NCBI GenBank assembly: GCA_014727915.1
Contig: WJMO01000006.1
Span: forward strand, 130,137 to 194,136
Length of the DNA stretch: 64,000 nt
Direction of reading: 5' to 3'
DNA from: Candidatus Altiarchaeales archaeon
Lineage (GTDB): Archaea; Altiarchaeota; Altiarchaeia; IMC4; SCGC-AAA252-I15
This document shows, piece by piece, positions 3,647-60,439 of the stretch (position 1 is its first letter; each line of letters starts with the position of its first letter). A program made the position numbers and the translations under genes. Under the pieces are notes generated by a model. It did not search any database, had not been told where the DNA came from, and saw nothing but the letters and a program-made list of their open reading frames with translations.

Positions 3647-3793
3647 AGCCTCAGGCGAGAATTGAACTCGCGACCTTTGCCTGTTTGGGACCTTACGGAT
3701 TTTATGCTTCTTTCTTTCCGTGGACGCTTTCTTTCTTCGCGAGAAAGAAAGGGCCCTACCAAGGCAACGCTCTACCGACTGAGCTACTGAGGC
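3647..3793 (-). tRNA. tRNA-Thr (anticodon GGU) with ~74-nt intron at canonical 37/38 position
   Basis: Minus strand reads GCCTCAG-TA-GCTC-AGTCGGTA-GAGC-G-TTGCC-TTGGTA[intron]A-GGCAA-AGGTC-GCGAG-TTCAATT-CTCGC-CTGAGGC-T; all four stems pair; intron contains perfect hairpin CTTTCTTTCTCGCGAAGAAAGAAAG. Confidence 0.65.
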
Positions 3794-23587: not shown

Positions 23588-24067
23588 ATGGGCAGATTGC
23601 TGGCATTCCTCATCCTAGCTTCGCTCATTGCGAGCGGATGCCTTGATAGCACCAGCGAAAACAGAAGAGACGCGGTCGAGACGCCTGCAACCCACGGTAA
23701 AGAGCCCGCCACAAACACTGAAGTTATGATCCCTGAGATAGACGGTTCCAAACACTACACTGAAGTTGACGCCCGCCAGGCCAAGAGGATATACGATGAA
23801 GTCGAAGGCGTTGTTGTTGTTGACGTCAGGGGATGGCCGCTCTACGACGCGGGACACATACCAGGAGCCATAAACATTCCCGAGAAGGAGGTCGAAGGCC
23901 TGGGCTCACTGGACAAGGAAGCAACGTACCTGATATACTGCGGCGGGAACGGGCAGAGCATACGCGTAGGGGAGGAGATGGGCAGGAGAGGGTTCAAGAA
24001 CGTCTACAGGCTAGTGGACGGGTACGCCGCCTGGAGGAGGGAGGGATACCCGAAGGAGAAGACCTAA
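23588..24067 (+). CDS. Rhodanese-domain sulfurtransferase, lipoprotein
   Basis: Signal peptide + SGC; rhodanese fold with active-site loop YCGGNGQS. Confidence 0.65.
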   Translation: MGRLLAFLILASLIASGCLDSTSENRRDAVETPATHGKEPATNTEVMIPEIDGSKHYTEVDARQAKRIYDEVEGVVVVDVRGWPLYDAGHIPGAINIPEKEVEGLGSLDKEATYLIYCGGNGQSIRVGEEMGRRGFKNVYRLVDGYAAWRREGYPKEKT

Positions 24068-41569: not shown

Positions 41570-41797
41570 CTATAGCATCTCCCCTATCTCTATTGTGTCG
41601 TCTTCAGGTATGAACGGGGGCATAACCTCGTCCACGTCCACATCGTCCAATGACGTGTTATCTGCGACGGTGCCGGGCTGCACTCTCGTATCCCCCTGGG
41701 GGCTGGAGTCCTCCGACATGCCGGCGTCCGTATGCGTGGACTGCATGCATCCTATGGCAAACACCACCAGCACTGCGAGGGCGACTAATGCTCTCAT
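41570..41797 (-). CDS. Small acidic lipoprotein, hypothetical
   Basis: Signal peptide with GC lipobox; stop overlaps upstream gene start. Confidence 0.35.
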   Translation of the reverse strand: MRALVALAVLVVFAIGCMQSTHTDAGMSEDSSPQGDTRVQPGTVADNTSLDDVDVDEVMPPFIPEDDTIEIGEML

Positions 41798-42783
41798 TTT
41801 CCATTGCCTCCGCCGCCGTTATTGCCCTGTGCTCCTAAACCGTTATTGCCCGGTCCTCCACCGGCGGGGTTTTCCTGGCCTGGGCCTTTCTTATCCTGTT
41901 GTTTCTGGATTATCTCCTGGCGCTTTTCCATGCGGTCCTGGAGCTTGCCCATCTGGCGGTCGAGGTTCTCCACCCTCTTCTGCAGCCGCTCCTGCGCGCC
42001 ATCCGACAGGTTCATGGCCTGGGCCTTCTCCAACCTCTTCTCAAGCCTGGCGTTAGCTCTTTCCATCTGGTTCAACGCAACCCTGTCGGCCACAGCCTTC
42101 TTGAAGACGCTCCCCTTGACATGCTCTTCCTTCATCGCAGACCATGCGTTCCTCTTCTGGGTATTGTTCATTGCCTTAAATGCGTTCTTCAATGACTTTT
42201 GTACCTGGCTCTTGTTCGCTTCGCCGTTCTCCACATCCTCGATAAGGCCAGGGTCGTCTATGCCGGCCGCGTCCATCATGTTCTGCAGCTGCTCCGCATT
42301 ATACGCGTTCCGGGCATTCCGGAACCTCTGCTTCCACTCCTGCCCGGTGCCGTTCAACTCAGCCCTAAATGACTTCCTCAAAGCCGCCGCCTCAGGACCG
42401 GAGATCAAAGTCCTCGCGGATTCCCGGAACTCCTTGGTCAAAGCCACAGACTCCTGTTTCATGTCAACAAAAGCCTTAGCCGCCGCCTCCCCGACCGCGG
42501 GCTCCGTGGACCCGACCTCGTCCAATAGCACGTTCATCTCGGCCAGAATCGCCTCCAGGCCGGACGAGTCACTCCCGTTCGCCTCAACATACCCTATTAT
42601 CTCCTCACCCCATGCGATGTTCTTCTCAAGCGCCCGCTCAAGCTGGAGCAGACGCACCTCAGAACCCCAGGTGGACCTGAAAGCCAGTGTCTCATTCTCC
42701 ACCTCTCCACCAGCATCCTCTGCGAATACAGGGTTCGCGTAAGCCAACACCACCAACAAGCTCAAAATCAATGCTTTTTTCAT
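41794..42783 (-). CDS. Secreted coiled-coil protein with Gly/Asn-rich tail
   Basis: Signal peptide; long helical K/E/Q-rich region; C-terminal GPGNNGLGAQGNNGGGGNGK. Confidence 0.5.
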   Translation of the reverse strand: MKKALILSLLVVLAYANPVFAEDAGGEVENETLAFRSTWGSEVRLLQLERALEKNIAWGEEIIGYVEANGSDSSGLEAILAEMNVLLDEVGSTEPAVGEAAAKAFVDMKQESVALTKEFRESARTLISGPEAAALRKSFRAELNGTGQEWKQRFRNARNAYNAEQLQNMMDAAGIDDPGLIEDVENGEANKSQVQKSLKNAFKAMNNTQKRNAWSAMKEEHVKGSVFKKAVADRVALNQMERANARLEKRLEKAQAMNLSDGAQERLQKRVENLDRQMGKLQDRMEKRQEIIQKQQDKKGPGQENPAGGGPGNNGLGAQGNNGGGGNGK

Positions 42784-42875: not shown

Positions 42876-43559
42876 CTAGTTCAACTTCACCATGGCGCTC
42901 ATCCCGACCCGCCTCTTCTCGACAACGCCCATGCCCTCGAGTGTGTCTATGTTCCGTGACACGCTGGACTTGGGCAGGTTCAGCTGCTCACATATCTCCG
43001 CCTGGTTCACGGGAGCATTCCTCTCCCTGAGGAACTCGACTATCATCCTCTGCCTGTCGGTGAGCATACGATCGTCAAAGCCAGCACCTGCCTTGGAAGG
43101 CCTCCACCATAGATACATCACCGCAGAGGCGGCAGCCAACAAGGCTATGACGGCAGCATACAGTGTGCTGTTGTCAGGTGAACTTTCACGGCCGATGGTG
43201 TACTGGACCAGGACATTGAAGGGCTCATCCTCCCCAACCCCCGACACCTTAACCCTCCCATCCTCGGAGGATATCCTGAAGCCCCGGGGGGACATGGCAT
43301 AGTTGACTTCCGCCCCTTCGGGCAGCTTGACAGAGTACACGTACTCGGTGAAATCACCGTCCAAGCTGATGTTAAGCAGCCAGTAGCCGCCGCGCTTGAA
43401 CGTGTACTGGTCGTAGACCCCGTCAGCCAGCAGGGGGTGGTTGCTGGTGCCAGATATTGTAGCGGCTCCAGACCCGCTGACATCAAATGATACGTCAGCG
43501 TAGTAGGCCTCGGCCGAGGCGAAACCAACCAATAAGATGAAAAGCAAAACCCGCTTCAT
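42876..43559 (-). CDS. Membrane-anchored wHTH regulator with extracytoplasmic domain (paralog family)
   Basis: Signal peptide (start probably MKRVLLF at 43559), external beta-rich domain, TM, C-terminal wHTH. Confidence 0.55.
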   Translation of the reverse strand: MKRVLLFILLVGFASAEAYYADVSFDVSGSGAATISGTSNHPLLADGVYDQYTFKRGGYWLLNISLDGDFTEYVYSVKLPEGAEVNYAMSPRGFRISSEDGRVKVSGVGEDEPFNVLVQYTIGRESSPDNSTLYAAVIALLAAASAVMYLWWRPSKAGAGFDDRMLTDRQRMIVEFLRERNAPVNQAEICEQLNLPKSSVSRNIDTLEGMGVVEKRRVGMSAMVKLN

Positions 43560-43719
43560 CGTGGAGAATATATATGCCAGACATCCTCTTAAAGGCATAA
43601 GCCACAACCGACAGTTAAAATTATTTATAATATTTTCAAAATAATTTAAAATTTTACATTAATACTTTGTCTTCCATGTTGGGCTGGCCGGTATTTTTAT
43701 TCCCTGTTCCCATGAGTTC

Positions 43720-46314
43720 ATGTTCAATATGCGGTGGTTGGTTTTATTCATAGTGTTGGCGCTATTATCAGGCTTCACGACTGGCAGGCAGGATCAGGGC
43801 ATGATGCCCGACCTGGGAAAGCAGAAGCCCGGCGCTGGCATCCCTGAGGTAGAGACCGGCCCCGGCAGCCAGCCGGCAGACCTGCCGGAGGTGCCCGGGG
43901 AGCGGGCGCTCATCTCCGGCGTGCCACACTATTATCAGGCGACCATGGAGGGGGAGATGTGCCCCAACCTCCTGCCCCTGCTCCTGGGAAGCCCCGTGCC
44001 CGCAGGCTACAAGGACTATAAGACCGGGTGCGGGCCGGTTGCTGCAGTGGCTGTTATGGGGTGGTGGGAGCGCCGGGGGGTAGACGGCCTGCTGCTGCAT
44101 ACGGTGGAGGGGGACGGCCTGCCCCAGGACACGATAATAGAGATAGGCCAGTACGAGTACTTGAGGAGGCTGCCGGACTGTGACAGCGGCCAGGCGGCGG
44201 TGACACCCTCAAGGTTCGAGACAGGATTCCAGAACTACCTGGACGACCACGGCAGCGTGGAATTCACGGTCACAAAATACAAGATAACCAAGGACAGCGA
44301 CTTCGACCAGATATGGGATATGGTCAAGGAGGAGATAGACAACGGCCGGCCCCTCGTATACCTGCTCAGGCATGACGGTCTGCGGCAGGACGCAGCCAAC
44401 GACCAGGACAACCACAAGCTCGCAGACCACTACATCGTCATAGTAGGATATGATACGGTGGACAACCAGCGTGTTCTGGTGGGCCAGTACAACTTCGGCT
44501 ACGTCGGCTACTACGACCACTACTTCACCCACTGGCTACCCCTCGAGGTCGGAGACTACACAACAGCCTATCCAAAGTACCACCTGTTCGCCATCCGGCC
44601 TGTCTCAGAGCCGGACTACATGGGAGAGTGCAGCGGGTGGCTGCTGAACACCACCAGGTTCCACGAGGCAGACCCCTACGACGGCGTCCAGTCGGAGTAC
44701 TTCAGGCCCTACCAGGCGGAGTTCACCAACGGCAGCACATGGAAGAAGACCAACGTGTTGGAGAAGCAGGACGGCATCTGCTTCGTGGCCAGGTGGATAG
44801 ACTCCGACGAGGACGGCATCTATGACGGGGAGGACAACTGCCCCGACATCTACAACCCAGGCCAGGAGAACGGCGACGGCGACGATTACGGGGACATATG
44901 CGACTACCCGGACATCGTGTTAGAATACGGTTACAGGGACTATTCCGAGGTGGAGTTGGGTGACGGGCGGGCGAGGATATCATTCACCATCGACACGAAC
45001 CTCACCAACCAGGGAACAGACCCCATTGTAGCCGGGACTTCACTGGTTGTGAAGTGGGTGCAGGAGGCAGTGACAACAGGGGGTGAGAAGGTAACAGCCG
45101 ATGAAGATGGCGAGATTGTGCCTTTGAAGATAACCCAGGCCAAAGGAAGTAAGAAGCTGATGATCATGGAGAACATCCCGGACGAGGATGAAGGCGGCAG
45201 CGGGCCTGAACTCATTTTGAACGTGGACGGCATGTTGGACATGCCGTTGGAACGCAGCCAGCAGGTGACTTTGTCTGCCGGGCTGTTGGAAGGCGGGTCT
45301 TATAGCCTGGACTCCCAGACGTTCTCGTTGATATTGGACGAGGGCGAATGCGCCACTGTCACCCACACGATATACACCATCGATTCGGTGGATGAGATGG
45401 ACGGCCATGAGGACAATGAAGTGGTTGAAGTCCCCTACAACAAGCTCAGCGACTGCTTCGGAGTCGCTGGAATAGACCCTGACGATGTTATAGACAGCAT
45501 ACTCGGGCCTCAAGCTTCCGTGGACGGCGCGGACACCCCTGAGTTGGACAAGGACATCGCCGAAGCCGGCATAGACCAGATAATAGGGATCCTGCAGACC
45601 ATAGGACCGGAGGGCGGTACGAACCTCTACCACGACCATTTGACCGTTGACTTCCCCGCGGGCGCTGTTGACAGGCAGCTGCCGTTGAAGGTGAAGATAT
45701 TCAGGGGTAGTATGGCGGGGTTCGATCCCGTGGGGGAAGTATATGACATCCAGTTCCCGCCGGGGCAGAGGCTTAACAAGCCCGTGACATTGTCCATAGG
45801 CTATGGGGGTGAAGACCTCGCCGGGGTTGAGGAGGGTTCCCTGGCTGTTCACACTTTCTCCCAGGGCAGGTGGACTGCCCTGCCATCCGAGGTTGACACG
45901 GCATATGATGTTGTGTCAACCCAGCTGAACCATTTCACCCTATACGCACTCGCACCATTAGGTCAGGGTTCTAAGACGCCGCCGAAGCCGTTCAACAAGT
46001 CGACGGCTAAGCCATTCGACAAGCCGGATCTTGGGAAGCCAAATAGATCAGAGATGCGCGGTTTCAAAGGCCCGGAGGGTAAAACGGGCGGAGAGAAGGC
46101 TTTGCTGTTCAAGCACATGAAATCCGGCGAGCAGCTTGTGAAGGTGAAGAACGTGACAAAGGACGGCCGCCCCGCCTACCAGGTGCAGAAAAAACGCAGA
46201 GCCAGGATACTAGGCATAGTTCCTGTTGATGTGAACGTGGAGACGACAGTCGACGCCAACAGCGGGGAGAAACTGGGGGAGAATAAGCCCTGGTGGAACT
46301 TCCTGGCATTCTAA
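43720..46314 (+). CDS. Large secreted protein: N-terminal C39-like papain-fold peptidase domain, thrombospondin type-3-like Ca-binding repeats, extended beta-rich region
   Basis: Signal peptide; catalytic-type Cys (YKTGCGPVAAVAVMGWW) and His (ADHYIVIVGYD); DSDEDGIYDGEDNCPDIYNPGQENGDGDDYGDICD. Confidence 0.65.
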   Translation: MFNMRWLVLFIVLALLSGFTTGRQDQGMMPDLGKQKPGAGIPEVETGPGSQPADLPEVPGERALISGVPHYYQATMEGEMCPNLLPLLLGSPVPAGYKDYKTGCGPVAAVAVMGWWERRGVDGLLLHTVEGDGLPQDTIIEIGQYEYLRRLPDCDSGQAAVTPSRFETGFQNYLDDHGSVEFTVTKYKITKDSDFDQIWDMVKEEIDNGRPLVYLLRHDGLRQDAANDQDNHKLADHYIVIVGYDTVDNQRVLVGQYNFGYVGYYDHYFTHWLPLEVGDYTTAYPKYHLFAIRPVSEPDYMGECSGWLLNTTRFHEADPYDGVQSEYFRPYQAEFTNGSTWKKTNVLEKQDGICFVARWIDSDEDGIYDGEDNCPDIYNPGQENGDGDDYGDICDYPDIVLEYGYRDYSEVELGDGRARISFTIDTNLTNQGTDPIVAGTSLVVKWVQEAVTTGGEKVTADEDGEIVPLKITQAKGSKKLMIMENIPDEDEGGSGPELILNVDGMLDMPLERSQQVTLSAGLLEGGSYSLDSQTFSLILDEGECATVTHTIYTIDSVDEMDGHEDNEVVEVPYNKLSDCFGVAGIDPDDVIDSILGPQASVDGADTPELDKDIAEAGIDQIIGILQTIGPEGGTNLYHDHLTVDFPAGAVDRQLPLKVKIFRGSMAGFDPVGEVYDIQFPPGQRLNKPVTLSIGYGGEDLAGVEEGSLAVHTFSQGRWTALPSEVDTAYDVVSTQLNHFTLYALAPLGQGSKTPPKPFNKSTAKPFDKPDLGKPNRSEMRGFKGPEGKTGGEKALLFKHMKSGEQLVKVKNVTKDGRPAYQVQKKRRARILGIVPVDVNVETTVDANSGEKLGENKPWWNFLAF

Positions 46315-46759: not shown

Positions 46760-47118
46760 AAAAGCAGGATATATTTTTCCATATCCTACCTAGTATTCTA
46801 CCATGGGCAAGTTTAGGATGGTCTTCGGCCATAGCATCCAGGGTATTGAGGCCCGTGAGGAGCTGCGGCACAGAATACAAGTCGGGATTGAAGTGCACCG
46901 ACACAGACCTCGGACAGCACTTCTACTTCCCAGGCACCACAACAGGAAAACGATACTCCGCCTCGACCTCTGTGGACACTGAGACCGACAGCTGCGAAGG
47001 CGAGTTCATACTCAACGAATACTACTACGTCGGCGACACCCGGTACATCACACAGTACAGGTGCCCCAACGGCTGCGAAGACGGAGCCTGCAAGAGCGGT
47101 TTGTAACGTCAAGCCCTT

Positions 47119-48516
47119 CTATTTCCGGCCGTTCCAGCAGTATAGGCAGAGTTTCTCCCTGGGCAGGCCGATCGCCTCTATCATGTCTTCGAGGCGCTGG
47201 TACATTAGGGACGTGGAGCCGAGGTCATTGTTTATCCACTCTACCATCTTGGCGTATTCGTCGGAGTCGGAATCCAGGTATTTGTCCACGTTCTTTTTTA
47301 TGTCTCCTTCCAGGCTTTTTATCGCCTTCCGGGCGGCCAGCTCCTCCAGGGTCTTCGTGGAAAGGTTGTACTTGCAGGGGAACATAAGCGGGGGACAGGC
47401 CACTCTGATGTGGATCTCCCTGGCTCCGCTGTTGTATAGTTTGTTGAGGGTGTAGTTCTTCAGCTGTGTGCCGCGGACGATGCTGTCCTCGCATATCACG
47501 ATGCTCTTGCCCTTTATGATCTTCTCGTTGGGTATGAGCTTCATCAAGGCTATCTGGTCCCTTGTCTCCTGGGAAGGGGGAGTGTAGCTGCGTCCATATC
47601 CGGGTGTGTACTTGACCATGGGGCGCCTGAAGGGAACTCCAGCGCCGATCGCGTAACCGATGGCATGCGCCACCCCGGAATCGGGTATGCCCGCGGCCAT
47701 ATCAGCCTTCACACTATCGCGTGCTGCCAGGGCCTTCCCGCACCGTTCCCTGACCTCCTCCGCGTTTATTCCCTCGTAGTCAGATGCCGGGAAGCCCGTG
47801 TATATCCACATGAAAGAGCATATCCGATTGTCTTCCCCCTCTTTTTTAACCGTCTTAACGCCCTTTTCAGTGAGCAGGACTATCTCGTCCGGTCCGACGT
47901 GCTTCTTCGCCTTCAAACCCAGGTTGGAGAAGGCGCATGACTCGGATGTGACCGCGTGGAATCCATCGCCTTCGCCGACTACGAGGGGAAACCTGCCTTT
48001 CCGGTCGCGGGCAGCGTATACTCCGTCCTTGTTCAGTAGCAGCAGTGTTATAGAGCCTTGGATCTGGTCGTACATCTTGCCTATGCCGTCGACGATGTCA
48101 TCGCCTTTGCTTATCATTGTTGCCACCAGCTCGGCCGGGTTCACTCCGTCCTTGGAGTACTCTGAGAATGTCTCCCCGTTCTCGATCAGCTCGCTGGCTA
48201 TTTCAGACTTGTTCTCTATGAGCCCGTTTGTGCAGAGGGCGTAGGTGCCGAACTTCGACTCGAATACGAGGGGCTGCTCGTTGCTGTCGCTTATGACGCC
48301 GATGCCCGCTTTGCCCTCTATGTCCTGGAGGTCCTGGTAGAACTTCCCCTTGAACTGGCTCTGCTGTATGTCGTGTATCTTCTTCGTTATCCTGTTCTCG
48401 CCGTTGAGGACTGCGAGGCCCCCGTACTGTGTTCCAAGGTGGCTGTGGTAGTCCACGCCCACGAATAGTTTGCTCGTGCAATCCGCCCCGCCTATGACTC
48501 CGAACAATCCACTCAT
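47119..48516 (-). CDS. Amidophosphoribosyltransferase-like protein (PurF family) with Ser in place of the N-terminal nucleophile Cys
   Basis: Ntn-amidotransferase + PRTase layout; PRPP motif SIVICEDSIVRGTQ; N-terminus MSGLFGVIG where PurF has MCG. Confidence 0.75.
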   Translation of the reverse strand: MSGLFGVIGGADCTSKLFVGVDYHSHLGTQYGGLAVLNGENRITKKIHDIQQSQFKGKFYQDLQDIEGKAGIGVISDSNEQPLVFESKFGTYALCTNGLIENKSEIASELIENGETFSEYSKDGVNPAELVATMISKGDDIVDGIGKMYDQIQGSITLLLLNKDGVYAARDRKGRFPLVVGEGDGFHAVTSESCAFSNLGLKAKKHVGPDEIVLLTEKGVKTVKKEGEDNRICSFMWIYTGFPASDYEGINAEEVRERCGKALAARDSVKADMAAGIPDSGVAHAIGYAIGAGVPFRRPMVKYTPGYGRSYTPPSQETRDQIALMKLIPNEKIIKGKSIVICEDSIVRGTQLKNYTLNKLYNSGAREIHIRVACPPLMFPCKYNLSTKTLEELAARKAIKSLEGDIKKNVDKYLDSDSDEYAKMVEWINNDLGSTSLMYQRLEDMIEAIGLPREKLCLYCWNGRK

Positions 48517-48590
48517 CCTAAAGGAGAAGCTATTGGACAGATAGTTTAAAAAGTAATGTAATAAACCCTGACGCATAATCTCTTCCCAAT

Positions 48591-49163
48591 ATGAGAATGT
48601 CCATTGTTTTGCTGGTTATTATGTCGGGTTGCCTCGGAGGCGGGCCCGACGTGGAGGCCGAGCCGACGACGACTACCATCACCCTGCCCGAGGACTGCGG
48701 TTTAGACGTTCCAGTCAGGCTGCAGATGGATGGGGACTGGTGCGGGGTGGCGGTATCCCAGATGATCCTGGAATACTATGGGTTATACGCGGACCAGAAG
48801 ACGCTCTCGGAGGAGATAGTCGGGGACCGTGGAGGCTCCTTAACGCATATGAAGGACGTGCTTGCAGGCTATGGGCTGGAGGTCGAGGAGAAGAACTATG
48901 GTTTGGAGGGTGTCAGCGAATTGGAGAAGGCAGTCTGCGGGGAGAGGTCGCCCGTAATCGTCTTGCAGAGGATGGGCTTCGAAAACCCGAACAGCCACTA
49001 CAGGATCGTCGCAGGCTTCGACAGGAGATACGCTTATGTAATCGACCCATACTATGGGCGGGTGAGATTCACCAGGAACGAGTTCAGGGAGCTGTGGGAG
49101 TTCAACGACCCGAACAGGGTGGACAACACCGCCTTGATAGTCAGGGGAGGGGTGAGGGTTTGA
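48591..49163 (+). CDS. C39-like papain-fold peptidase-domain lipoprotein (catalytic residues present)
   Basis: Lipobox SGC; Q-x5-C (LQMDGDWCGVAV) and His (SHYRIVAGFD). Confidence 0.6.
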   Translation: MRMSIVLLVIMSGCLGGGPDVEAEPTTTTITLPEDCGLDVPVRLQMDGDWCGVAVSQMILEYYGLYADQKTLSEEIVGDRGGSLTHMKDVLAGYGLEVEEKNYGLEGVSELEKAVCGERSPVIVLQRMGFENPNSHYRIVAGFDRRYAYVIDPYYGRVRFTRNEFRELWEFNDPNRVDNTALIVRGGVRV

Positions 49164-49672
49164 TGGAGTGTAGGGGGGCTCTGGTGTTGTTGATGGTTTT
49201 CAGCGGTTGCATCGGCGTAGAGGATGGGTTGCCGGAGGAATGCGGGTTGAAGATCGAATTCCATGGCGTGGGTGATGCCGCCTTCGCCCGGGCAGTGTTG
49301 GAATACTACGGGATAAACAGGAGCTTGGAGGTGTTGGAAGGAGACCTAGCCATGGAAGCTGGAACAGGCCGGTTAGACCGGATGAAGTCTCTGCTGAGGA
49401 TGCACGGACTCCACGTTGAAGAGGGTAAGGCCATGGACTGGGAGGAGTTGGGCGTTCACGTCTGCGAAGAGGGCAATACAGCCATATTATTTCACAGAGA
49501 GGGAGAGACTTTCATGGCTGTCCTGGGTTTCGAAGGCGGCAGAGTATACGCCGAAGACCAGAGGGAGGGTCTGGTCAGGTTCACCAGGGATGAGTTCATG
49601 CTTTCAACATTGCAGGATGGTAAGTTGGTCGTTCATGGTAGGCTCTTGGAGGGTAAGCCACTCTGCATCTGA
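49163..49672 (+). CDS. C39-like domain lipoprotein paralog lacking catalytic Cys and His (predicted inactive)
   Basis: ATG overlaps upstream stop (TGATG); lipobox SGC; Gly/Asp at Cys position, Thr at His position; conserved LVRFTRDEF tail. Confidence 0.5.
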   Translation: MECRGALVLLMVFSGCIGVEDGLPEECGLKIEFHGVGDAAFARAVLEYYGINRSLEVLEGDLAMEAGTGRLDRMKSLLRMHGLHVEEGKAMDWEELGVHVCEEGNTAILFHREGETFMAVLGFEGGRVYAEDQREGLVRFTRDEFMLSTLQDGKLVVHGRLLEGKPLCI

Positions 49673-51007: not shown

Positions 51008-51685
51008 TCAGACTATCTTCCCGTCGACTATCTGTATCTTCTGCCTGGCGTTCTTGGCTATCTTCGAGTCGTGGGTGACTATCACCAAGGTCTTGCCCTC
51101 TTCCTCGTTCAACCTCTTCAGCAGGCCCATGATTGTCTTCCCGGTATTCTGGTCCAGGTTCCCGGTGGGCTCGTCGGCGAGTATAATCTGGGGATCGTTA
51201 GCCAGGCTTCTAGCTACCGCGACCCTCTGCTGCTGTCCGCCGCTCAGCTCCGACGGCCTGTTGCCCGCCTTGTCGGAGAGGCCGACCAGCTCGATTATCT
51301 CCTCTACTTTACTATTCCGCACGGGTTTTGGTGTGCCCTTGAATCTCATGGGGAGTTCGATGTTCTCGGCTGCGCTCATCGTCGGGATGAGGTTGAACTG
51401 CTGGAAAACGAACCCCAGCTTCTCCCTCCTCAACCTGGCCTTCTGAACTCCGTTCAACCCGCTTATGCCAACGTCCTCGATGTAGACCTCCCCCCGTGTG
51501 GGGGTGTCCAGGCAGCTTATCAGATTCAGCAAGGTGGATTTGCCAGAGCCTGAAGGTCCGATTATGCTAGCGAACTCCCCCAACTCAATCGTCAAGTCCA
51601 CTCCGTTCAATGCCCTGCATTCGTTAGGCTCGCCCTCGTTGTATATCTTGAACAAACCCACACAGCGTATTTCCCCGTTACTCAT
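51008..51685 (-). CDS. ABC transporter ATP-binding protein (MacB/LolD-like)
   Basis: Walker A GPSGSGKST, signature LSGGQQQR, Walker B ILADEPTGNLD. Confidence 0.9.
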   Translation of the reverse strand: MSNGEIRCVGLFKIYNEGEPNECRALNGVDLTIELGEFASIIGPSGSGKSTLLNLISCLDTPTRGEVYIEDVGISGLNGVQKARLRREKLGFVFQQFNLIPTMSAAENIELPMRFKGTPKPVRNSKVEEIIELVGLSDKAGNRPSELSGGQQQRVAVARSLANDPQIILADEPTGNLDQNTGKTIMGLLKRLNEEEGKTLVIVTHDSKIAKNARQKIQIVDGKIV

Positions 51686-52847
51686 AGCGCAACACCTCTA
51701 TAGGATCGAGCCTCGAAGCAGCCCATGCAGGATATAAGCCTGCCCCCATCCCTAGTATGAGGGAGAATGCGAATCCTATGGCGATGAGCTCAGGGCTTAA
51801 TATGGGGGTGAATGACGTGTGGGATTTCACCAGTTCACTGGCTCCATATCCGAGCATGAACCCGATGAACCCGCCTATGAGGCTCAACACCGCGGACTCC
51901 TCCAATACCTGCATGAGTATGTTGGTTGTGGTGGCGCCGATGGCCTTCATCACCCCAATCTCCCGCCTGCGTTCCATGACGCTCATGATCATCGTGTTCA
52001 TTATGCCAATGCCACCCACGATAATGGACACAGCGCCGATGCCGTAGACTGCCATCGTTATGGTGCCCAACGTGCTCTCCAAGCTCCGGACCAACGTAAT
52101 AGCAGAGAAAGCCCGGACCGTGTCGAACATGTCGCTTATCTCCTGTTGGATAGGTTCTACATTCTCGACCTCGTCCACCTTCACCTTTAACTGGGTTATC
52201 TTGTCGTCGTCTTCCAAATCCTGCATGGTTGAAAGGGGGACGAAAGCCGCCTCGTCAATTGTTGAGTCCCCGGTCTCCTCCAGGATGCCCACGACTTCGA
52301 AGTGGAAGCTATCGGTGGTGTCGTTCTCGACCCGCTGGTACTCTATCTCGTCGCCGACGTTGTACAGTTGGTTGTAGGCGGTCGTGGATCCCAGGAGCAC
52401 CACATACTGGAAGTCGTCTGATACATCAAGTTTACGACCGTCATCTGCGACTATGTTCTCGCCTATCAGGTAGTCCTGGTCTTCAGGGTTCAAGGCCGTG
52501 AACTCCAGGGTGCTGGATGAGCCGCCCATCATCCGACCCATCATCCCCCCAAAGCCTCTGTGGCCCCCGCGGCTTATCCGGTATTCGCCGATTGCCACAA
52601 CGTCCGTTACGCCTGTTATGTCCCGTATGTCCTGTATCATGTCCTCGGTTATACCGTCCTCGCTCTCGAAGTCGCGGACGTCGATGACGGCCGCCATGTC
52701 ACCGAAGGAATCCTGTATCTGCTTGTTCAACCCCTCACCTATGGCTCCGAGGGTGAGTATCAAACCTATGCCCATGGCTATGCCCAGCATGGTCAATATG
52801 CTGCGGGACTTCTGCCTGAAGACGTTCTTAAACGCGATGTCAAGCAT
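51678..52847 (-). CDS. ABC transporter permease, FtsX/MacB-type
   Basis: N-terminal TM, large extracytoplasmic domain, C-terminal 3-TM FtsX-like bundle; start probably ATG 52847. Confidence 0.8.
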   Translation of the reverse strand: MLDIAFKNVFRQKSRSILTMLGIAMGIGLILTLGAIGEGLNKQIQDSFGDMAAVIDVRDFESEDGITEDMIQDIRDITGVTDVVAIGEYRISRGGHRGFGGMMGRMMGGSSSTLEFTALNPEDQDYLIGENIVADDGRKLDVSDDFQYVVLLGSTTAYNQLYNVGDEIEYQRVENDTTDSFHFEVVGILEETGDSTIDEAAFVPLSTMQDLEDDDKITQLKVKVDEVENVEPIQQEISDMFDTVRAFSAITLVRSLESTLGTITMAVYGIGAVSIIVGGIGIMNTMIMSVMERRREIGVMKAIGATTTNILMQVLEESAVLSLIGGFIGFMLGYGASELVKSHTSFTPILSPELIAIGFAFSLILGMGAGLYPAWAASRLDPIEVLRYE

Positions 52848-52848
52848 C

Positions 52849-54531
52849 TTACTTCTTCTTACGCCTCTTGTAGAGCTTGTAACCGCCAACAACCACAACC
52901 AAGACTATAACTGCCTTCATTAACAGGGCTGCCAGCCCAGAACCAGAATTCCTATTTGAAGAGCCCGTGAAAGAGGACATCGCAGTTGAAGAACCACCCC
53001 CAAGGTTGAAGGTTTCCACCTGGGTGACTCTCTCACCGTTCAATCCAGCATACTCCAACGTCAAAGTGAACGGGCCGGACACGGTAGTGTCGAAGGTGAA
53101 GGTCGTCTGCTTCGTAGGCTTGATGTCCGACTTGTAGGAGACAATCTCCTGGCTTCCGGTTTGAGCGTATGCGGAAGTCCCACTATCAGACGTTGATTGC
53201 CTGGCACCTCCGCTGGGCCGGACCATACCCCTGCCAGACAACATGGACACCGGATTAGACTGCCTCTGGCTCGCCCTGTTTTCCCAGGCCTCATCCGTGG
53301 ACTGGGTGCTACGGTCAAACGTCCGGTTACCCAGGTCCGACGTCTTTACAGTGGCCTTGACTCCCTCCGCAGCCCGGGTGCCAATGTTAGCGACTTCTAT
53401 GCGGAGCGAACCACGCTCCTGATCGACGTTTATCACCTCCAATATGACCTGCCCCGACACATCCAATCCGATGCTCTTCTCATCCGTGTACGAAGTGCCC
53501 CCGACCGTATAGTCTATCGTCAAGGGTATCGCATAGGTTTGAATCTCAGCATCCCATGAGATGGATATCTCAAACTCTGTCTGCACATCCTCGCCGGACT
53601 CGACCGTGCCTATGTGCTTCTCCGCAGTGTCAACTGGGACGAAAGGCTCGGACAGTGTCAGGCTTGCCGTGACATCATCAGCGGCCGCAGCCCCATAGTT
53701 CTTCAAACCCATCTTCAATTCTACCGTCTCTCCCGGACCTGTCGGCTCGTAGCTGACGTTCAAAACCTTGAAGTCAATGCCCGCACTCTCAACGTTCAAG
53801 CCGAAGGACATGTTTCTGGAGGCTGAAGTGCCGGACTCGTCCGTGTAGTCTATCTTCAAAGAGACCATGCACGCCCCCTCAGCAGAAGGCTTTATCTGGT
53901 AGCCCAATGTGAAATCATCGCCTTCCTCAATGTCTCCTATGTACTTTCTGGATGAGCCTATAACGGTGAGGCAGTCAGACGATAGCGTGGCTTCCAGGTC
54001 CTCCACCGAGGAGCGCAACGTACCTTCCAGGACCAGGTCTCCGAGCGTGTCCTTATAGTATGTGGTCTTCTCCGGGTTCAACTGGAAGAGTGGGTTACCG
54101 TATATCCGCAGGGGCACGTCCCATGTGGTGAGCAGGTTGTTCACCGAAGTCCCATCGTATTTGAAACCGTCATATGATATGCGAACGTTAATCGCTGTCA
54201 AACCCGTCTTCGCTCCCTCCTTTACCCTCACAACTACGGGCACGGTCTTGGACTGCTCCGGGTCGACCCTGCCTATGTAGAATTTCTTGTCGACACTCAC
54301 GACACCAGTGCTTGGAATGTATACTTCAACGTCGTCAGCGCGAAACCCGCCAGTGTTCTCAATGGCAAGGTTGAGTATGCCACTGTCACCAGGCCTGAGA
54401 TTAGAGTCATAGTATGTCGAGTCGAAGTCAACGACCACGTTAGTTGGTGAGGTCGTGCCTGCAGTAGCAGCCAAGACACCATCTGAAAAAATGCAAAGGA
54501 ACACCATCAACAACAAAATCCTTTTCACCAT
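52849..54531 (-). CDS. Secreted surface-layer-like beta-repeat protein with C-terminal TM anchor (partner of FtsX/ABC pair)
   Basis: Signal peptide; repeated beta-rich modules; C-terminal TM + KKRRKK stop-transfer. Confidence 0.65.
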   Translation of the reverse strand: MVKRILLLMVFLCIFSDGVLAATAGTTSPTNVVVDFDSTYYDSNLRPGDSGILNLAIENTGGFRADDVEVYIPSTGVVSVDKKFYIGRVDPEQSKTVPVVVRVKEGAKTGLTAINVRISYDGFKYDGTSVNNLLTTWDVPLRIYGNPLFQLNPEKTTYYKDTLGDLVLEGTLRSSVEDLEATLSSDCLTVIGSSRKYIGDIEEGDDFTLGYQIKPSAEGACMVSLKIDYTDESGTSASRNMSFGLNVESAGIDFKVLNVSYEPTGPGETVELKMGLKNYGAAAADDVTASLTLSEPFVPVDTAEKHIGTVESGEDVQTEFEISISWDAEIQTYAIPLTIDYTVGGTSYTDEKSIGLDVSGQVILEVINVDQERGSLRIEVANIGTRAAEGVKATVKTSDLGNRTFDRSTQSTDEAWENRASQRQSNPVSMLSGRGMVRPSGGARQSTSDSGTSAYAQTGSQEIVSYKSDIKPTKQTTFTFDTTVSGPFTLTLEYAGLNGERVTQVETFNLGGGSSTAMSSFTGSSNRNSGSGLAALLMKAVIVLVVVVGGYKLYKRRKKK

Positions 54532-57920: not shown

Positions 57921-58007
57921 GCCCCCGGAGCAGCCACCAACCACAACCAACAATAAGAGCCAAATAGCATATGTGCTGGTTTTAGGCTAAAAAAGGCGTT
58001 AGGGACC
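57921..58007 (+). repeat. Direct repeat A flanking hicBA cassette
   Basis: gcccccggagcagccaccaaccacaaccaa...gagccaaatagca...gttagggacc; imperfect copy at 58749-58877. Confidence 0.6.
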
Positions 58008-58069
58008 AATAAATCAAAGGTTTAACATTCTTAAATAGTATTTAATTATCTTACATTCTTATATCTTTT

Positions 58070-58303
58070 ATGATGAAAAAAACTCAATTTCCCCTTGTTA
58101 TTGAAAAAGATGAGGATGGGTTCTATGTTGTAGAATGCCCAGTGTTGGAGGGGTGTTATTCTCAGGGTAAAACCTTGGATGAGGCGATGAAGAATATTCG
58201 GGAAGTCATTGAGATCTGTCTTGAGGAATCGTCCACTAAAGATTTTCTGAAAAACTATCACCCAGTAGAGTTTAGCTTCCATACTATTACTGTTGGTTCA
58301 TGA
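58070..58303 (+). CDS. hicB: HicB-family antitoxin (UPF0150-like)
   Basis: FPLVIEKDEDGFYVVECPVLEGCYSQGKTLDEAMKNIREVIE typical of HicB N-domain. Confidence 0.7.
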   Translation: MMKKTQFPLVIEKDEDGFYVVECPVLEGCYSQGKTLDEAMKNIREVIEICLEESSTKDFLKNYHPVEFSFHTITVGS

Positions 58304-58527
58304 TGGCATCGAAGCTGCCCATCGTTTCTGGCAAACAAGCAGTCAAAGCGTTCAACAAACTTGGTTATGCTGTTATTAGAAGGAGGAGTAGCCATATTCG
58401 CCTGGAACATGAAAGTAAGAAAAAGATAACAATCCCAGACCACAAAACACTAGGAAAAGGAATACTAAGAAAACTAATCCGCGATGCTGAGATAACAATA
58501 GAAGAATTCAACAAATTACTAAAGTAA
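58300..58527 (+). CDS. hicA: HicA-family toxin (YcfA-like)
   Basis: 75 aa; SGKQAVKAFNKLGYAVIRRRSSHIRLEH pattern; start overlaps hicB stop. Confidence 0.7.
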   Translation: MMASKLPIVSGKQAVKAFNKLGYAVIRRRSSHIRLEHESKKKITIPDHKTLGKGILRKLIRDAEITIEEFNKLLK

Positions 58528-58748
58528 AATTTTCACCCCAATTCTTTAAAGGAGTTCAACACCCCCCAAATCAACGAATCCTCATCCGACTCAATGAAGC
58601 TCTCGAAGCGATCGAAAAGGAAGCCAACAAATTCTTCGTGCAATTGTCCAAGAACAAGCAGTTCAGAACTTGGCTGGAGAAGACGTTCACAGCCCCGAAG
58701 ATCGAGGCGGGGTTGAGTTTGCCCTTTTTTTCGGTTGCCGGTTTCGAA

Positions 58749-58877
58749 GCCCCAGGAGCAACCACCAACCCACAACCAAGAAAAAGAGCCAAATAGCAAA
58801 TCAGCTAGAATTAAGCTAAACCCGTCGAAACTACCAACACACAACCAAGAACAGAAGCCAACAGCGTGTTAGGGTCC
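58749..58877 (+). repeat. Direct repeat B flanking hicBA cassette (with internal partial duplication)
   Basis: gccccaggagcaaccaccaacccacaaccaag...gagccaaatagca...gttagggtcc. Confidence 0.6.
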
Positions 58878-58885
58878 TTTTTCTG

Positions 58886-59722
58886 CTATGTTTTTTTGAA
58901 TTTAAGGTGTATTATCTCTGGTTGGGCGAAGAATCTTATAGGTAGTCCTGTCACTCCTACTCCATTTGTTATTATGACTTTTGTGTGTTCTGTTTCCACG
59001 ATGCCACTTATGTATTTTTCACCGTAGTCGCTTGTCTTGTAGGGGGTCCATAAACCGAAGAAAGTGACCTGTCCACCGTGTGTGTGCCCTGCTAACATAA
59101 GGTCTATTTTGTCTGTTTTAATCTCTTCTGCGTAGTCTGGATTGTGTGAGATAAGGATTACAAAGTCCTCTTCTGAAACATTCTCTATTGTTGGTTGTAT
59201 GTCCTGTGTGTCTTCCCATATGTCTCCGACGCCACCTACCCTAATCTTGTTCCCATTATCTGTAATCCATTCACCCTGGTTGTCGACGAGCGTTATATCG
59301 GCCTCCTCTAGGGCTTTCCTTGCTTGTTCTGCATCAGCCCAATGTTCATGATTGCCTAACACACCATAGACTCCCAGAGGTGCATGGAGGTCTTTTAATT
59401 CTCCTATGCAGGGGTCAATGTATTTTATGTCATCGTAGATGTAGTCGCCACCCAACAAAATAATATCTGGTTCGAGGTCGTTAATCATCCCTATTATGTC
59501 TCTTGTCCTCTCAACTGACAACAGGGGACCGCAGTGTATGTCAGCCACGAAAACAGCAGTCTTACCATTAAACGAACTGGGAACATCCTCGTCAACAATA
59601 TCTATCTCATTAACTCGAATAAGATATGCCTCAATGAACGAATAGGCAAAACATAAAAGAAACACCATTCCCATACCGACTAGTATCCTTTTCCACCGCA
59701 TCTCAAACCATATAACCCCCAA
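58886..59722 (-). CDS. Calcineurin-like metallophosphoesterase
   Basis: N-terminal TM; motifs GDYIYDD, GNHEHW, GHTHGGQ. Confidence 0.75.
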   Translation of the reverse strand: MGVIWFEMRWKRILVGMGMVFLLCFAYSFIEAYLIRVNEIDIVDEDVPSSFNGKTAVFVADIHCGPLLSVERTRDIIGMINDLEPDIILLGGDYIYDDIKYIDPCIGELKDLHAPLGVYGVLGNHEHWADAEQARKALEEADITLVDNQGEWITDNGNKIRVGGVGDIWEDTQDIQPTIENVSEEDFVILISHNPDYAEEIKTDKIDLMLAGHTHGGQVTFFGLWTPYKTSDYGEKYISGIVETEHTKVIITNGVGVTGLPIRFFAQPEIIHLKFKKT

Positions 59723-59953
59723 TCAATAAATATTTCTGGATTTCACTCTAACAACAAACAGATATATGGCTCTAAAGGTCCATCTCCCCATCAAAAGGCT
59801 ATATTGCACCAGAACAAACAGGTGAGCTACAAGAACAAACAGGGTAGGGTGTTGTCTTGTCTTGTGAAGTCTCCTTGGCCTGTTTGGGCTGAATATTGGT
59901 TTTTATCCTGTCTTGTATGCTAGGATGATGGTTCCTTGATCCTTGCCTGTATT

Positions 59954-60415
59954 TTAAGGAATAATCTCGTTGTGGATGTAACTATGAGCAGCTAAGGAAT
60001 ATGCCCCACTAATGGCATGGACCATTACACAAGCTATCAGTGAGACTAATGAAAAGATAAAATTGAAAATAAAAACTGGGATTATTATTCGGTTACGTCT
60101 TGAATTAACTTTTTTCTCTAGATAGACATGTATGCTGGAAAAACCAATCCCATAACAGATCGGGTTAATTATCAGAAAAATTTGTTCAATCATTCCCTGC
60201 ATTAAATTCATGTTCTGTGCATCTGAGAGTAGATTGAATACTGGTTTGGTAAATGTAAGGATGATATTTCCAGCTGAGAATATGCTCTGTCCTGCAATAA
60301 TAAAAATTAGTAGATAGAACATAATCTGCAAGACAATAATAAAAAAAGCAATTAGGGCCGACTTTATCCATTTGTTTTCTTGTGAAAAAATCTTGCGCCT
60401 TAAGTTACCTAGCAT
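59954..60415 (-). CDS. Membrane protein, hypothetical (AT-rich gene)
   Basis: 153 aa, 4 predicted TM helices; low GC. Confidence 0.4.
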   Translation of the reverse strand: MLGNLRRKIFSQENKWIKSALIAFFIIVLQIMFYLLIFIIAGQSIFSAGNIILTFTKPVFNLLSDAQNMNLMQGMIEQIFLIINPICYGIGFSSIHVYLEKKVNSRRNRIIIPVFIFNFIFSLVSLIACVMVHAISGAYSLAAHSYIHNEIIP

Positions 60416-60439
60416 TTTAGCCTATATCGAGTTCCTTTT

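What the first reader, a model, noticed from the sequence alone, without database searches (positions are those of the whole stretch)
48591..49672. Tandem C39-like lipoprotein pair: one catalytically intact, one with both catalytic residues replaced
The first paralog keeps the Cys (DWCGVAV) and His (SHYRIVAGFD). The overlapping downstream paralog has Gly/Asp and Thr at those positions but keeps the fold-defining blocks (LEYYG, LVRFTRDEF). A third C39-like domain heads the 864-aa TSP3-repeat protein at 43720. This looks like an enzyme/pseudo-enzyme pair, perhaps a protease with an inhibitor or adaptor.
Basis: seen in the sequence. Interest (0 to 1): 0.6.

Follow-up and report, generated by a model that had tools for sequence, protein, structure and literature searches.

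The report
Active and dead C39 peptidase lipoprotein pair
Two back-to-back genes in an uncultured Altiarchaeales archaeon encode membrane-tethered copies of a C39-type cysteine protease; one copy is intact and the other has lost its whole active site, and this pairing is seen only in this lineage, so its role is untested.

Summary
P1 (48591-49163, 190 aa) and P2 (49163-49672, 169 aa) are paralogs with 34% identity (E=3e-18). They overlap by one base (TGATG), and both start with a short signal peptide ending in SGC.

P1 is a bona fide C39 peptidase. It passes the Pfam cut-off, carries Gln45/Cys51/His136/Asp152, and its AlphaFold model matches LahT150 (6MPZ) with a TM-score of 0.82. P2 keeps the C39 fold but has Gly37 and Thr116 at the Cys and His positions. 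It also lacks the oxyanion Gln and most other family-invariant residues, keeping 11 of 28 conserved columns against 27 for P1. MAFFT places P2 Cys27 under the catalytic Cys, but P1 has the same LPE[DE]CGL motif upstream of its own Cys51, so this is an artefact.

The pairing is not conserved. P2 has no credible homolog other than P1 among 1.84 billion representative proteins, and 21 related loci each carry a single C39 gene. The pair is therefore a lineage-specific tandem duplication in a Candidatus Altiarchaeales MAG, followed by fast divergence of P2.

An adaptor, regulator or inhibitor role for P2 is plausible by analogy with HlyB's C39-like domain, but it is untested. The 864-aa protein's domain is only a distant clan relative. 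This is a new variant of a known kind, of modest interest.

The parts
48545..48552 (+). TTTAAAAA, an archaeal TATA-box-like element 39-46 nt upstream of the P1 start. It is the likely promoter of the two-gene operon.
   Evidence: Read directly from the sequence. This is a consensus resemblance only and was not tested.
48591..49163 (+). P1: a 190-aa free-standing C39 cysteine peptidase with an N-terminal signal peptide and lipobox (GenBank MBD3388370.1 / GF416_04775).
   Evidence: Pfam Peptidase_C39 E=2e-12 (47.5 bits, cut-off 22) and C39_2 E=2e-10. PDB sequence hit 6MPZ at E=6e-7. AlphaFold pLDDT 86.7. Foldseek 6MPZ TM-score 0.82.
48591..48632 (+). P1 signal peptide MRMSIVLLVIMSGC, with lipobox-like MSGC. 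Cys14 (48630-48632) is the predicted lipidated residue. It is followed by a Thr/Pro-rich tether, residues 15-33.
   Evidence: The same SGC ending occurs in ORFs at 13452, 17178 and 23588.
48723..48725 (+). P1 Gln45, the oxyanion-hole residue.
   Evidence: Invariant column in 23/23 homologs. Aligned to the Gln of LahT150.
48741..48743 (+). P1 Cys51, the catalytic nucleophile and first residue of helix 51-62.
48996..48998 (+). P1 His136, the catalytic base.
   Evidence: Invariant in 26/26 homologs. Aligned to the His of 6MPZ.
49044..49046 (+). P1 Asp152, the third member of the catalytic triad.
   Evidence: Invariant column.
49144..49158 (+). GGGGAGGGGTGAGGG, a Shine-Dalgarno-like purine run inside the end of P1, 5-19 nt upstream of the P2 ATG.
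   Evidence: It supports 49163 as the P2 start and translational coupling.
49163..49672 (+). P2: a 169-aa catalytically dead paralog of P1 with its own signal peptide and lipobox (GenBank MBD3388371.1 / GF416_04780).
   Evidence: BLASTP against P1 E=3e-18. Pfam C39 scores only 14.7 bits, below the cut-off of 22. AlphaFold pLDDT 77.8, with the core at about 85-94. Foldseek top hits are C39 peptidase domains and the HlyB C39-like domain.
49163..49210 (+). P2 signal peptide MECRGALVLLMVFSGC. Cys16 (49208-49210) is the predicted lipidated residue.
49271..49276 (+). P2 Gly37-Asp38, which occupy the position of the catalytic Cys-Gly.
   Evidence: Alignment to a profile built without P2. The helix 38-48 starts at residue 38.
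49508..49510 (+). P2 Thr116, in place of the catalytic His.
   Evidence: Every alignment agrees on this position.
49556..49558 (+). P2 Asp132, the only invariant family residue that P2 retains (equivalent to P1 Asp152).

Best explanation
This is a two-gene operon made by a lineage-specific tandem duplication of a free-standing, extracytoplasmic C39 cysteine peptidase in an Altiarchaeales archaeon.

Shown:
- P1 keeps the complete catalytic apparatus (Gln45, Cys51, His136, Asp152) and the C39 fold.
- P2 keeps the fold but has lost the Gln, Cys and His, and most of the conserved active-site face.
- The two genes are translationally coupled: the stop and start overlap in TGATG, and a Shine-Dalgarno-like run precedes the P2 ATG.
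- Both proteins carry the same kind of short signal peptide ending in SGC.

Inferred:
- Both proteins are exported and tethered by a lipid on the Cys to the outer face of the cytoplasmic membrane, on short flexible linkers.
- P1 cuts exported surface or envelope proteins there. This would resemble periplasmic FapD, rather than the cytoplasmic cleavage of Gly-Gly leader peptides by transporter-fused C39 domains.
- P2 is a pseudo-peptidase kept for a non-catalytic job next to P1. The most likely job is binding a polypeptide, or P1 itself, to recruit, hold or gate substrates, as the degenerate C39-like domain of HlyB does for HlyA.
For: - Paralogy. In a neighbour-joining tree P1 and P2 are sisters, and P2 has the longer branch. 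They share motifs absent from other relatives: the SGC lipobox, LPE[DE]CGL and VRFTR[ND]EF.
- P1 looks active: Pfam scores are above the cut-off. The catalytic residues align to LahT150 6MPZ. P1 matches 27 of 28 family-conserved columns. The model has pLDDT 86.7 and TM-score 0.82 to 6MPZ.
- P2 is folded but dead: the model core has pLDDT 85-94. Foldseek hits C39 peptidase domains and the HlyB C39-like domain at probability 1.00. P2 has Gly37, Thr116 and no Gln, and matches 11 of 28 conserved columns.
- Co-expression and shared location: the TGATG overlap and the Shine-Dalgarno run, and the recurrent SGC signal in five ORFs of the window.
- The P2 ORF is intact after divergence down to 34% identity, which argues it has been kept under selection.
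- The pair is adjacent in two GenBank MAG records.
- Precedents: non-catalytic C39-like domains that bind and chaperone substrate (PMC8277102); a periplasmic free-standing C39 peptidase, FapD (PMC5557850); archaeal lipobox proteins lipidated with archaeol (PMC12462473).
Against: - No physical or computational evidence for a P1-P2 interaction exists.
- P2 has no ortholog anywhere, so purifying selection cannot be measured.
- None of the 21 related loci has a second copy, so the pairing is not a conserved system.
- P2 lost the residues that line the substrate groove in active C39 domains (PV..LQ, GHYR, LW). If it binds a peptide, it probably does so differently.
- P2 has lower GC3 than P1 and its neighbours (0.67 against 0.73-0.77), a weak hint of relaxed constraint.
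- The -3 lipobox positions (Met in P1, Phe in P2) deviate from the canonical [LVI]. Lipidation is unproven in this lineage.
- No substrate has been identified.
Confidence: 0.5

Rival explanations
1. P2 is a functionless remnant. After the duplication one copy lost activity and is drifting, and it has simply not yet been broken by a stop codon or frameshift.
For: P2 is a singleton with no ortholog among 1.84e9 representative proteins or in the JGI metagenomes. The pairing is absent from all related loci. P2 keeps only 11 of 28 family-conserved columns and has the longer branch. Its GC3 is slightly lower than that of its neighbours.
Against: The 169-codon ORF is intact despite divergence to 34% identity. 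The start codon, the Shine-Dalgarno run, the signal peptide and the lipobox Cys are all retained. The losses are concentrated on the active-site face, while core and fold positions are kept. AlphaFold gives a confident core from a shallow alignment.
Confidence: 0.2
2. P2 is a dedicated inhibitor or 'immunity-like' partner. It would bind P1's active site or an exosite and keep the protease silent until it is released, as in co-transcribed protease-inhibitor pairs (staphopain-staphostatin) or papain-like toxin-immunity pairs.
For: The downstream gene overlaps the protease gene and goes to the same compartment. Foldseek lists papain-like toxin-immunity entries (9L5U, 8SSM) and staphopain-staphostatin (1PXV) among remote matches.
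Against: In those matches it is the protease or toxin chains that resemble P1 and P2. From general knowledge, not tested here, known inhibitors and immunity proteins have unrelated folds, such as the beta-barrel of staphostatin, whereas P2 has the protease fold itself. P1 is not attached to any toxin-delivery domain. No interface prediction was possible.
Confidence: 0.15
3. P2 has acquired an independent function unrelated to P1. This could be a lipid-anchored binding protein, or an enzyme using other residues. Co-transcription would then be only a leftover of the duplication.
For: The active-site surface is thoroughly remodelled. A C39-like archaeal protein has been reported to have non-peptidase activity (PMC13642728), and HlyB's C39-like domain binds its ligand on the face opposite the ancestral groove (PMC8277102). 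P2 has extra His residues (34, 81, 84, 99, 111, 158) and Cys168 that P1 lacks.
Against: There is no conserved family in which to identify new functional residues. His111 aligns to a non-catalytic His that LahT150 also has. Cys27 and Cys101 correspond to P1 Cys36 and Cys116, and look like a structural pair rather than a catalytic one. The tight translational coupling argues for joint use.
Confidence: 0.15

Closest known systems
Peptidase domains of PCAT/AMS ABC transporters (LahT150, PDB 6MPZ; PCAT1, 4RY2/7N87; ComA, 3K8U/5XE8), MEROPS family C39
   Same: P1 shares the fold (TM-score 0.75-0.83 normalised to the target), the Gln/Cys/His/Asp catalytic set and the sequence motifs. P2 shares the fold only.
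   Different: Those domains are cytoplasmic and fused to an ABC exporter, and they cleave Gly-Gly leader peptides before export. P1 and P2 are free-standing, carry signal peptides with a lipobox, and sit in no transporter or bacteriocin gene context.
C39-like domain (CLD) of RTX type 1 secretion ABC transporters (HlyB, PDB 3ZUA/7SGR)
   Same: It is a catalytically dead C39 fold retained for a non-catalytic, substrate-binding and chaperone-like role (PMC8277102). It is a structural match to P2.
   Different: The HlyB domain loses only the Cys (to Tyr) and keeps the His stacked on a conserved Trp. P2 has lost Cys, His, Gln and the conserved Trp. The HlyB domain is fused to the transporter and is cytoplasmic. 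P2 is a separate exported lipoprotein encoded next to an active paralog.
Free-standing periplasmic C39 peptidases (FapD of the Pseudomonas Fap amyloid system; FilB; PA2778 family)
   Same: These are exported, stand-alone C39 enzymes that act outside the cytoplasm on surface-fibre or envelope components (PMC5557850). P1 gives weak NCBIfam hits to these models.
   Different: All scores are far below the family cut-offs (16-26 bits against 150-475), so P1 is not a member. There are no fap or fil genes nearby, and no dead paralog is described in those systems.
Small family of secreted archaeal/CPR C39 proteins (P0002, P0004-P0009, L013)
   Same: These are the closest sequence relatives of P1, at 32-37% identity. 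All have signal peptides or membrane anchors and intact NWCG...GHYRIV motifs.
   Different: They are single-copy genes. One clade sits downstream of a CW_binding_2 protein and a small PEF-CTERM-like protein. None uses a lipobox and none has a dead partner.

Membership tests
Peptidase family C39 (Pfam PF03412 / PF13529): P1 | Profile score above the curated gathering threshold | tested here: met
   PF03412 47.5 bits (cut-off 22) and PF13529 41.7 bits (cut-off 24).
Peptidase family C39: P1 | Catalytic Cys at the N-terminus of a helix, plus His and Asp, with an oxyanion Gln about 6 residues before the Cys | tested here: met
   Gln45, Cys51, His136 and Asp152 align to LahT150. The helix 51-62 begins at Cys51. 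These columns are invariant across homologs.
Peptidase family C39: P1 | Papain-like alpha+beta fold of the ComA/PCAT1/LahT peptidase domains | tested here: met
   Foldseek: 6MPZ E=1.2e-9 with TM-score 0.82; PCAT1 and ComA at 0.75-0.83.
Peptidase family C39: P1 | Endopeptidase activity, classically after a Gly-Gly motif | not testable with these tools
   This needs an enzyme assay. No candidate substrate was identified in the window.
Peptidase family C39: P2 | Profile score above the gathering threshold | tested here: not met
   PF03412 14.7 bits against a cut-off of 22, E=0.028. There are no NCBIfam hits.
Peptidase family C39: P2 | Catalytic Cys/His (and Gln) | tested here: not met
   Gly37 and Thr116 occupy the Cys and His positions, and the Gln is absent. 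MAFFT's placement of Cys27 is an artefact (against 4 and 66).
Peptidase family C39: P2 | C39 fold | tested here: met
   The AlphaFold core has pLDDT 85-94. Foldseek hits 7N87, 6MPZ, 5XE8 and 3ZUA at probability 1.00, with TM-scores of 0.61-0.71 normalised to the target.
C39-like domain (CLD) of RTX-type ABC exporters: P2 | N-terminal domain of an ABC transporter | tested here: not met
   P2 is a 169-aa stand-alone ORF with its own signal peptide. The nearby ABC genes (51008-52898) are MacB/FtsX-type, lie on the other strand, and are separated from the pair by a Na+/H+ exchanger gene.
C39-like domain (CLD) of RTX-type ABC exporters: P2 | Cys replaced, but His retained and stacked on a conserved Trp | tested here: not met
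   The Cys is replaced (Gly37), but the His is also replaced (Thr116). The defining feature is taken from PMC8277102.
Lipobox lipoproteins (archaeal, AliA-type pathway): P1 and P2 | Signal peptide followed by the lipobox [L/V/I]-3 [A/S/T/V/I]-2 [G/A/S]-1 C+1 | tested here: inconclusive
   P1 has M-S-G-C and P2 has F-S-G-C, so positions -2, -1 and +1 fit and position -3 deviates. The same SGC ending follows hydrophobic N-termini in three more ORFs of the window. The motif definition is from PMC12462473 (abstract; paper text).
Lipobox lipoproteins: P1 and P2 | Thioether lipidation of the Cys and cleavage of the signal peptide | not testable with these tools
   This needs biochemistry. The presence of AliA in this genome was not examined, because only 64 kb is available.
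Protease-inhibitor or toxin-immunity operons (staphopain/staphostatin; papain-like toxins such as 9L5U and CdiA-CT) | The partner is a dedicated inhibitor with a fold unrelated to the protease; for toxins, the protease is fused to a delivery domain | tested here: not met
   P2 has the protease fold itself. P1 has only a signal peptide and a linker in front of the C39 domain.

The most novel reading that the evidence does not exclude
P1 and P2 form an obligate, lipid-anchored enzyme/pseudo-enzyme heterodimer. It would work in the space outside the cytoplasmic membrane; the one well-studied Altiarchaeales species has a double membrane (paper title), though this is not shown for this MAG. The dead subunit would supply substrate recognition or gating for the maturation of a cell-surface structure, for example fibre or S-layer-like subunits. 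That would be the first stand-alone C39 pseudo-peptidase with a defined partner and the first functional assignment for archaeal secreted C39 proteins.
Probability: 0.12. Interest if true: 0.6.

Novelty: new variant of a known kind. Interest (0 to 1): 0.3.

Why it matters
Dead C39 domains are so far known mainly as cytoplasmic modules fused to RTX-toxin exporters, where they hold the substrate. Here the same kind of decay has produced a separate, exported, probably lipid-anchored protein that is co-translated with its active sister.

If the two work together, they would be a compact natural example of how a protease gains a non-catalytic helper by duplication. They would also give an entry point to the unknown function of secreted C39 peptidases in archaea.

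The case rests on one lineage, with identical copies in two MAG records. There is no conserved pairing and no substrate, so it is a modest lead rather than a system-level discovery.

Tried and rejected
1. Complex prediction.
2. Orthologs of P2. A word-index search, an exhaustive phmmer search of 1.84e9 representatives and a JGI metagenome DNA scan found only P2 itself and P1. The one other hit, P0029, is a 1099-aa internally repeated protein whose score is summed over four repeats. I judged it spurious from its repeat structure.
3. Conserved pairing. Sixteen loci around P1 relatives and five around more distant C39 proteins were scanned in six frames with the family HMM. Each has exactly one hit.
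4. The genome-contig scan did not even recover the source genome, so no other Altiarchaeales genome could be examined. The first attempt failed because the alignment was too divergent.
5. MAFFT's placement of P2 Cys27-Gly28 under the catalytic Cys-Gly was considered as a possible refutation and rejected. It requires a 10-residue insertion in the catalytic helix, P1 has the same LPE[DE]CGL motif upstream of its true Cys51, and a profile built without P2 aligns Gly37-Asp38 to Cys-Gly.
6. The 864-aa protein as a close third paralog was rejected. It gives no hit with the family HMM or by BLASTP.
7. A bacteriocin/PCAT context was rejected. There is no C39-ABC fusion, and no Gly-Gly leader-peptide gene was found beside the pair.
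The proposed Cys36-Cys116 and Cys27-Cys101 disulfides and the residues near the P2 cleft could therefore not be measured.
Full report
**What is there**

The interval 48591-49672 holds two same-strand ORFs. P1 runs 48591-49163 (190 aa). P2 starts at the ATG at 49163 and ends at 49672 (169 aa). The P1 stop and the P2 start share one base (TGATG), and a purine-rich Shine-Dalgarno-like run (GGGGAGGGGTGAGGG, 49144-49158) lies just upstream of the P2 ATG.

An archaeal TATA-like TTTAAAAA lies 39-46 nt upstream of P1. The flanking genes are on the opposite strand. They are a PurF homolog on one side and a Na+/H+ exchanger on the other. The pair is therefore its own two-gene unit.

Identical proteins are deposited as hypothetical proteins GF416_04775 and GF416_04780 of a Candidatus Altiarchaeales MAG. 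Each has consecutive accession numbers in two records.

**Checking the observation**

- P1 and P2 are clearly paralogs. BLASTP gives 34% identity and E=3e-18. P1 is the only credible hit of P2 in an exhaustive phmmer search of 1.84 billion representative proteins, at E=1.2e-7.
- P1 passes both Pfam C39 models: PF03412 at 47.5 bits and PF13529 at 41.7 bits. P2 reaches only 14.7 bits against a cut-off of 22.
- P1 aligns to LahT150 (6MPZ), with its Gln45, Cys51, His136 and Asp152 on the catalytic residues.
- In P2 the His position is Thr116 in every alignment made.

The Cys position needed more care. MAFFT twice aligned P2's Cys27-Gly28 under the catalytic Cys-Gly, which requires a 10-residue insertion. 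I reject it for three reasons:

1. P1 carries the same LPE[DE]CGL motif (Cys36) 15 residues upstream of its real Cys51, so Cys27 is the counterpart of Cys36.
2. A profile built from the family without P2 aligns P2 Ala39 to the residue after Cys-Gly, which places Gly37-Asp38 on Cys-Gly.
3. In the AlphaFold models the catalytic helix is 51-62 in P1, starting at Cys51, and 38-48 in P2, starting right after Gly37.

The loss goes further than the two catalytic residues. Of 28 columns conserved in at least 75% of 26 other homologs, P1 matches 27 and P2 matches 11. P2 lacks Gln45, Cys51, Gly52, Pro121, Val122, Leu125, Gln126, His136, Tyr137, Arg138, Pro153 and Trp169. Of the invariant positions it keeps only Asp152, as its own Asp132.

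**Fold**

| Protein | Mean pLDDT | Best Foldseek matches |
|---|---|---|
| P1 | 86.7 | LahT150 6MPZ, E=1e-9, TM-score 0.82; then PCAT1 and ComA peptidase domains |
| P2 | 77.8; about 85-94 over residues 40-150 | PCAT1 peptidase domain, LahT150, ComA, and the degenerate C39-like domains of HlyB (3ZUA, 7SGR) and a Vibrio exporter (3B79), all at probability 1.00 |

P2 is thus a folded C39-type domain without a catalytic centre, that is, a pseudo-peptidase.

**Export and anchoring**

Both proteins begin with a short hydrophobic segment ending in SGC: MRMSIVLLVIMSGC in P1 and MECRGALVLLMVFSGC in P2. Three further ORFs of the window (starts at 13452, 17178 and 23588) have the same ending, so this looks like the lineage's lipobox.

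The published lipobox is [L/V/I][A/S/T/V/I][G/A/S]C, and archaeal lipoproteins carry thioether-linked archaeol added by AliA/AliB (PMC12462473). The -3 residues here (Met and Phe) deviate from that motif, so the lipoprotein call is likely but not proven.

P1 has a roughly 20-residue Thr/Pro-rich tether after the Cys, and P2 has a shorter one. Two further Cys residues are conserved between the paralogs (P1 36/116, P2 27/101). They recur in a related metagenomic protein (L013) and partly in P0009. A structural disulfide is my inference; I could not measure it.

**Is the pairing conserved?**

No. P2 has no relative other than P1 in any search:

- the 5.8-billion-cluster word search;
- the exhaustive representative search, whose one extra hit, P0029, is a repeat protein that I regard as spurious;
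- the JGI metagenome DNA scan.

P1's nearest relatives are 32-37% identical secreted C39 proteins from metagenomes and MAGs. I fetched 21 loci around these and around more distant family members, and scanned all six frames with the family HMM. Each locus has exactly one C39 ORF.

One clade of relatives has a conserved neighbourhood of a CW_binding_2 protein, then a small protein with a PEF-CTERM-like tail, then the C39 gene. This hints at cell-surface protein processing, but that context is absent from the window.

In a neighbour-joining tree of the core region, P1 and P2 are sisters and P2 has the longer branch. They alone share the SGC lipobox, LPE[DE]CGL and VRFTR[ND]EF. The simplest history is a tandem duplication within this lineage, followed by accelerated change in P2.

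**The 'third domain'**

The 864-aa protein (43720-46314) hits Peptidase_C39_2 at 28.8 bits, over the His-containing half only. It also hits Peptidase_C10 below cut-off and a TSP3 repeat weakly, with thrombospondin-type repeat hits in NCBIfam.

It is not found by the P1/P2 family HMM or by BLASTP against P1. It is a distant member of the same clan, not a close paralog, and nothing ties it functionally to the pair.

**How it most likely works**

Shown: an intact and a dead C39 paralog, translationally coupled, with matching export signals.

Inferred: both are tethered on the outer face of the cytoplasmic membrane. P1 cleaves exported proteins there, as the periplasmic stand-alone C39 peptidase FapD does in Pseudomonas (PMC5557850). 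P2 is retained for a non-catalytic role beside P1. The best precedent for that role is the C39-like domain of HlyB, which has lost proteolysis but binds and chaperones its substrate (PMC8277102).

I put about 0.5 on this package. The enzyme/pseudo-enzyme part alone is near-certain. The partner role is perhaps 0.4.

The rivals are:

- a drifting relic (0.2): favoured by the singleton status, the heavy loss of conserved residues and a slightly low GC3; disfavoured by the intact ORF, start signals, lipobox and confident fold;
- a dedicated inhibitor (0.15): the gene order fits, but known inhibitors and immunity proteins have unrelated folds (this is from general knowledge and was not tested here);
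- an independent new function (0.15).

**Comparison with known systems**

- P1 is a member of family C39 by score, catalytic residues and fold. It is not a PCAT domain, and it falls far below the cut-offs of the FapD, FilB and PA2778 models.
- P2 fails the C39 sequence threshold and the catalytic criteria.
- P2 works like a HlyB-type C39-like domain only in the broad sense of being a dead C39 fold. It is not fused to a transporter, and it has also lost the His and Trp that characterise those domains.

**Verdict**

This is a new variant of a known theme, confined as far as can be seen to one uncultured lineage. Interest is modest at 0.3. The decisive step is a complex prediction or pull-down, plus orthologs for a test of selection.

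Noticed in passing
window 47119-48516 (-): The divergently transcribed neighbour is a PurF (amidophosphoribosyltransferase) homolog. Its likely N-terminus reads M-S-G-L-F-G, so Ser aligns with the N-terminal nucleophile Cys1 of B. subtilis PurF (1AO0). It scores 208 bits against TIGR01134, below the cut-off of 350. It may be a variant or glutaminase-dead PurF. The ORF start listed at 48576 is probably too far upstream.
   Followed up: partly
window 43720-46314 (+): An 864-aa secreted protein with an N-terminal papain-like domain of the C39_2/C10 type (GCGP...DHYIVIVGYD). It also has a thrombospondin type-3 repeat region and a weak PepSY-like C-terminus. It is only distantly related to P1 and P2.
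   Followed up: partly
window 13452-14576, 17178-17822, 23588-24067 (+): Three more ORFs start with a short hydrophobic segment ending in SGC (LFVSGC, VIFSGC, LIASGC). The same ending occurs in P1 and P2, which suggests a lineage-typical lipobox with a relaxed -3 position.
   Followed up: partly
L002 3134-5519; L003-L008, equivalent positions: One clade of P1 relatives has conserved synteny. A Pur_ac_phosph_N protein is followed by a CW_binding_2 protein, a roughly 170-190-aa secreted protein with a PEF-CTERM-like tail (IPEFP + TM + basic residues), and then the C39 peptidase. The deposited gene call for the C39 gene (P0006, 136 aa) starts downstream of the catalytic NWCG, so the true start is further upstream.
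   Followed up: partly
window 3647-3793 (-): Rfam finds a tRNA spanning 147 nt (58.4 bits), so it presumably contains an intron. ARAGORN reports no tRNA in the window.
   Followed up: no
window 58001-64000: GC content drops to 0.40-0.44, against about 0.55 elsewhere. The stretch includes a 1089-aa CARDB-domain surface protein (60440-63709, -), so it may be foreign or fast-evolving surface-protein DNA. A smaller dip to 0.465 at 36-38 kb covers a GT87-like glycosyltransferase.
   Followed up: no
window 42876-43607 (-): A 243-aa protein with an N-terminal signal or TM segment, an extracytoplasmic-looking domain, a second TM segment and a C-terminal winged-helix DNA-binding domain (DUF7343/MarR). 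It may be a membrane-tethered transcription regulator, and it is divergent from the 864-aa protease-like gene.
   Followed up: no
window 46846-47106 (+): An 86-aa Cys-rich ORF (…CPNGCEDGAC…) with no Pfam hit, lying between the 145-aa ORF and the PurF homolog. Its coding status is unclear.
   Followed up: no
window 41794-42783 (-): A 329-aa secreted coiled-coil protein with a Gly/Asn-rich C-terminal tail (…GGGPGNNGLGAQGNNGGGGNGK). Its only hit is a weak one to DUF7260.
   Followed up: no
L009 1475-1666 (+): Downstream of the P1 relative P0004 lies a gene for a lipobox protein (…LLLSGCLGG…), cut off by the contig end after 64 residues. It cannot be told whether this is a C39-like partner.
   Followed up: no
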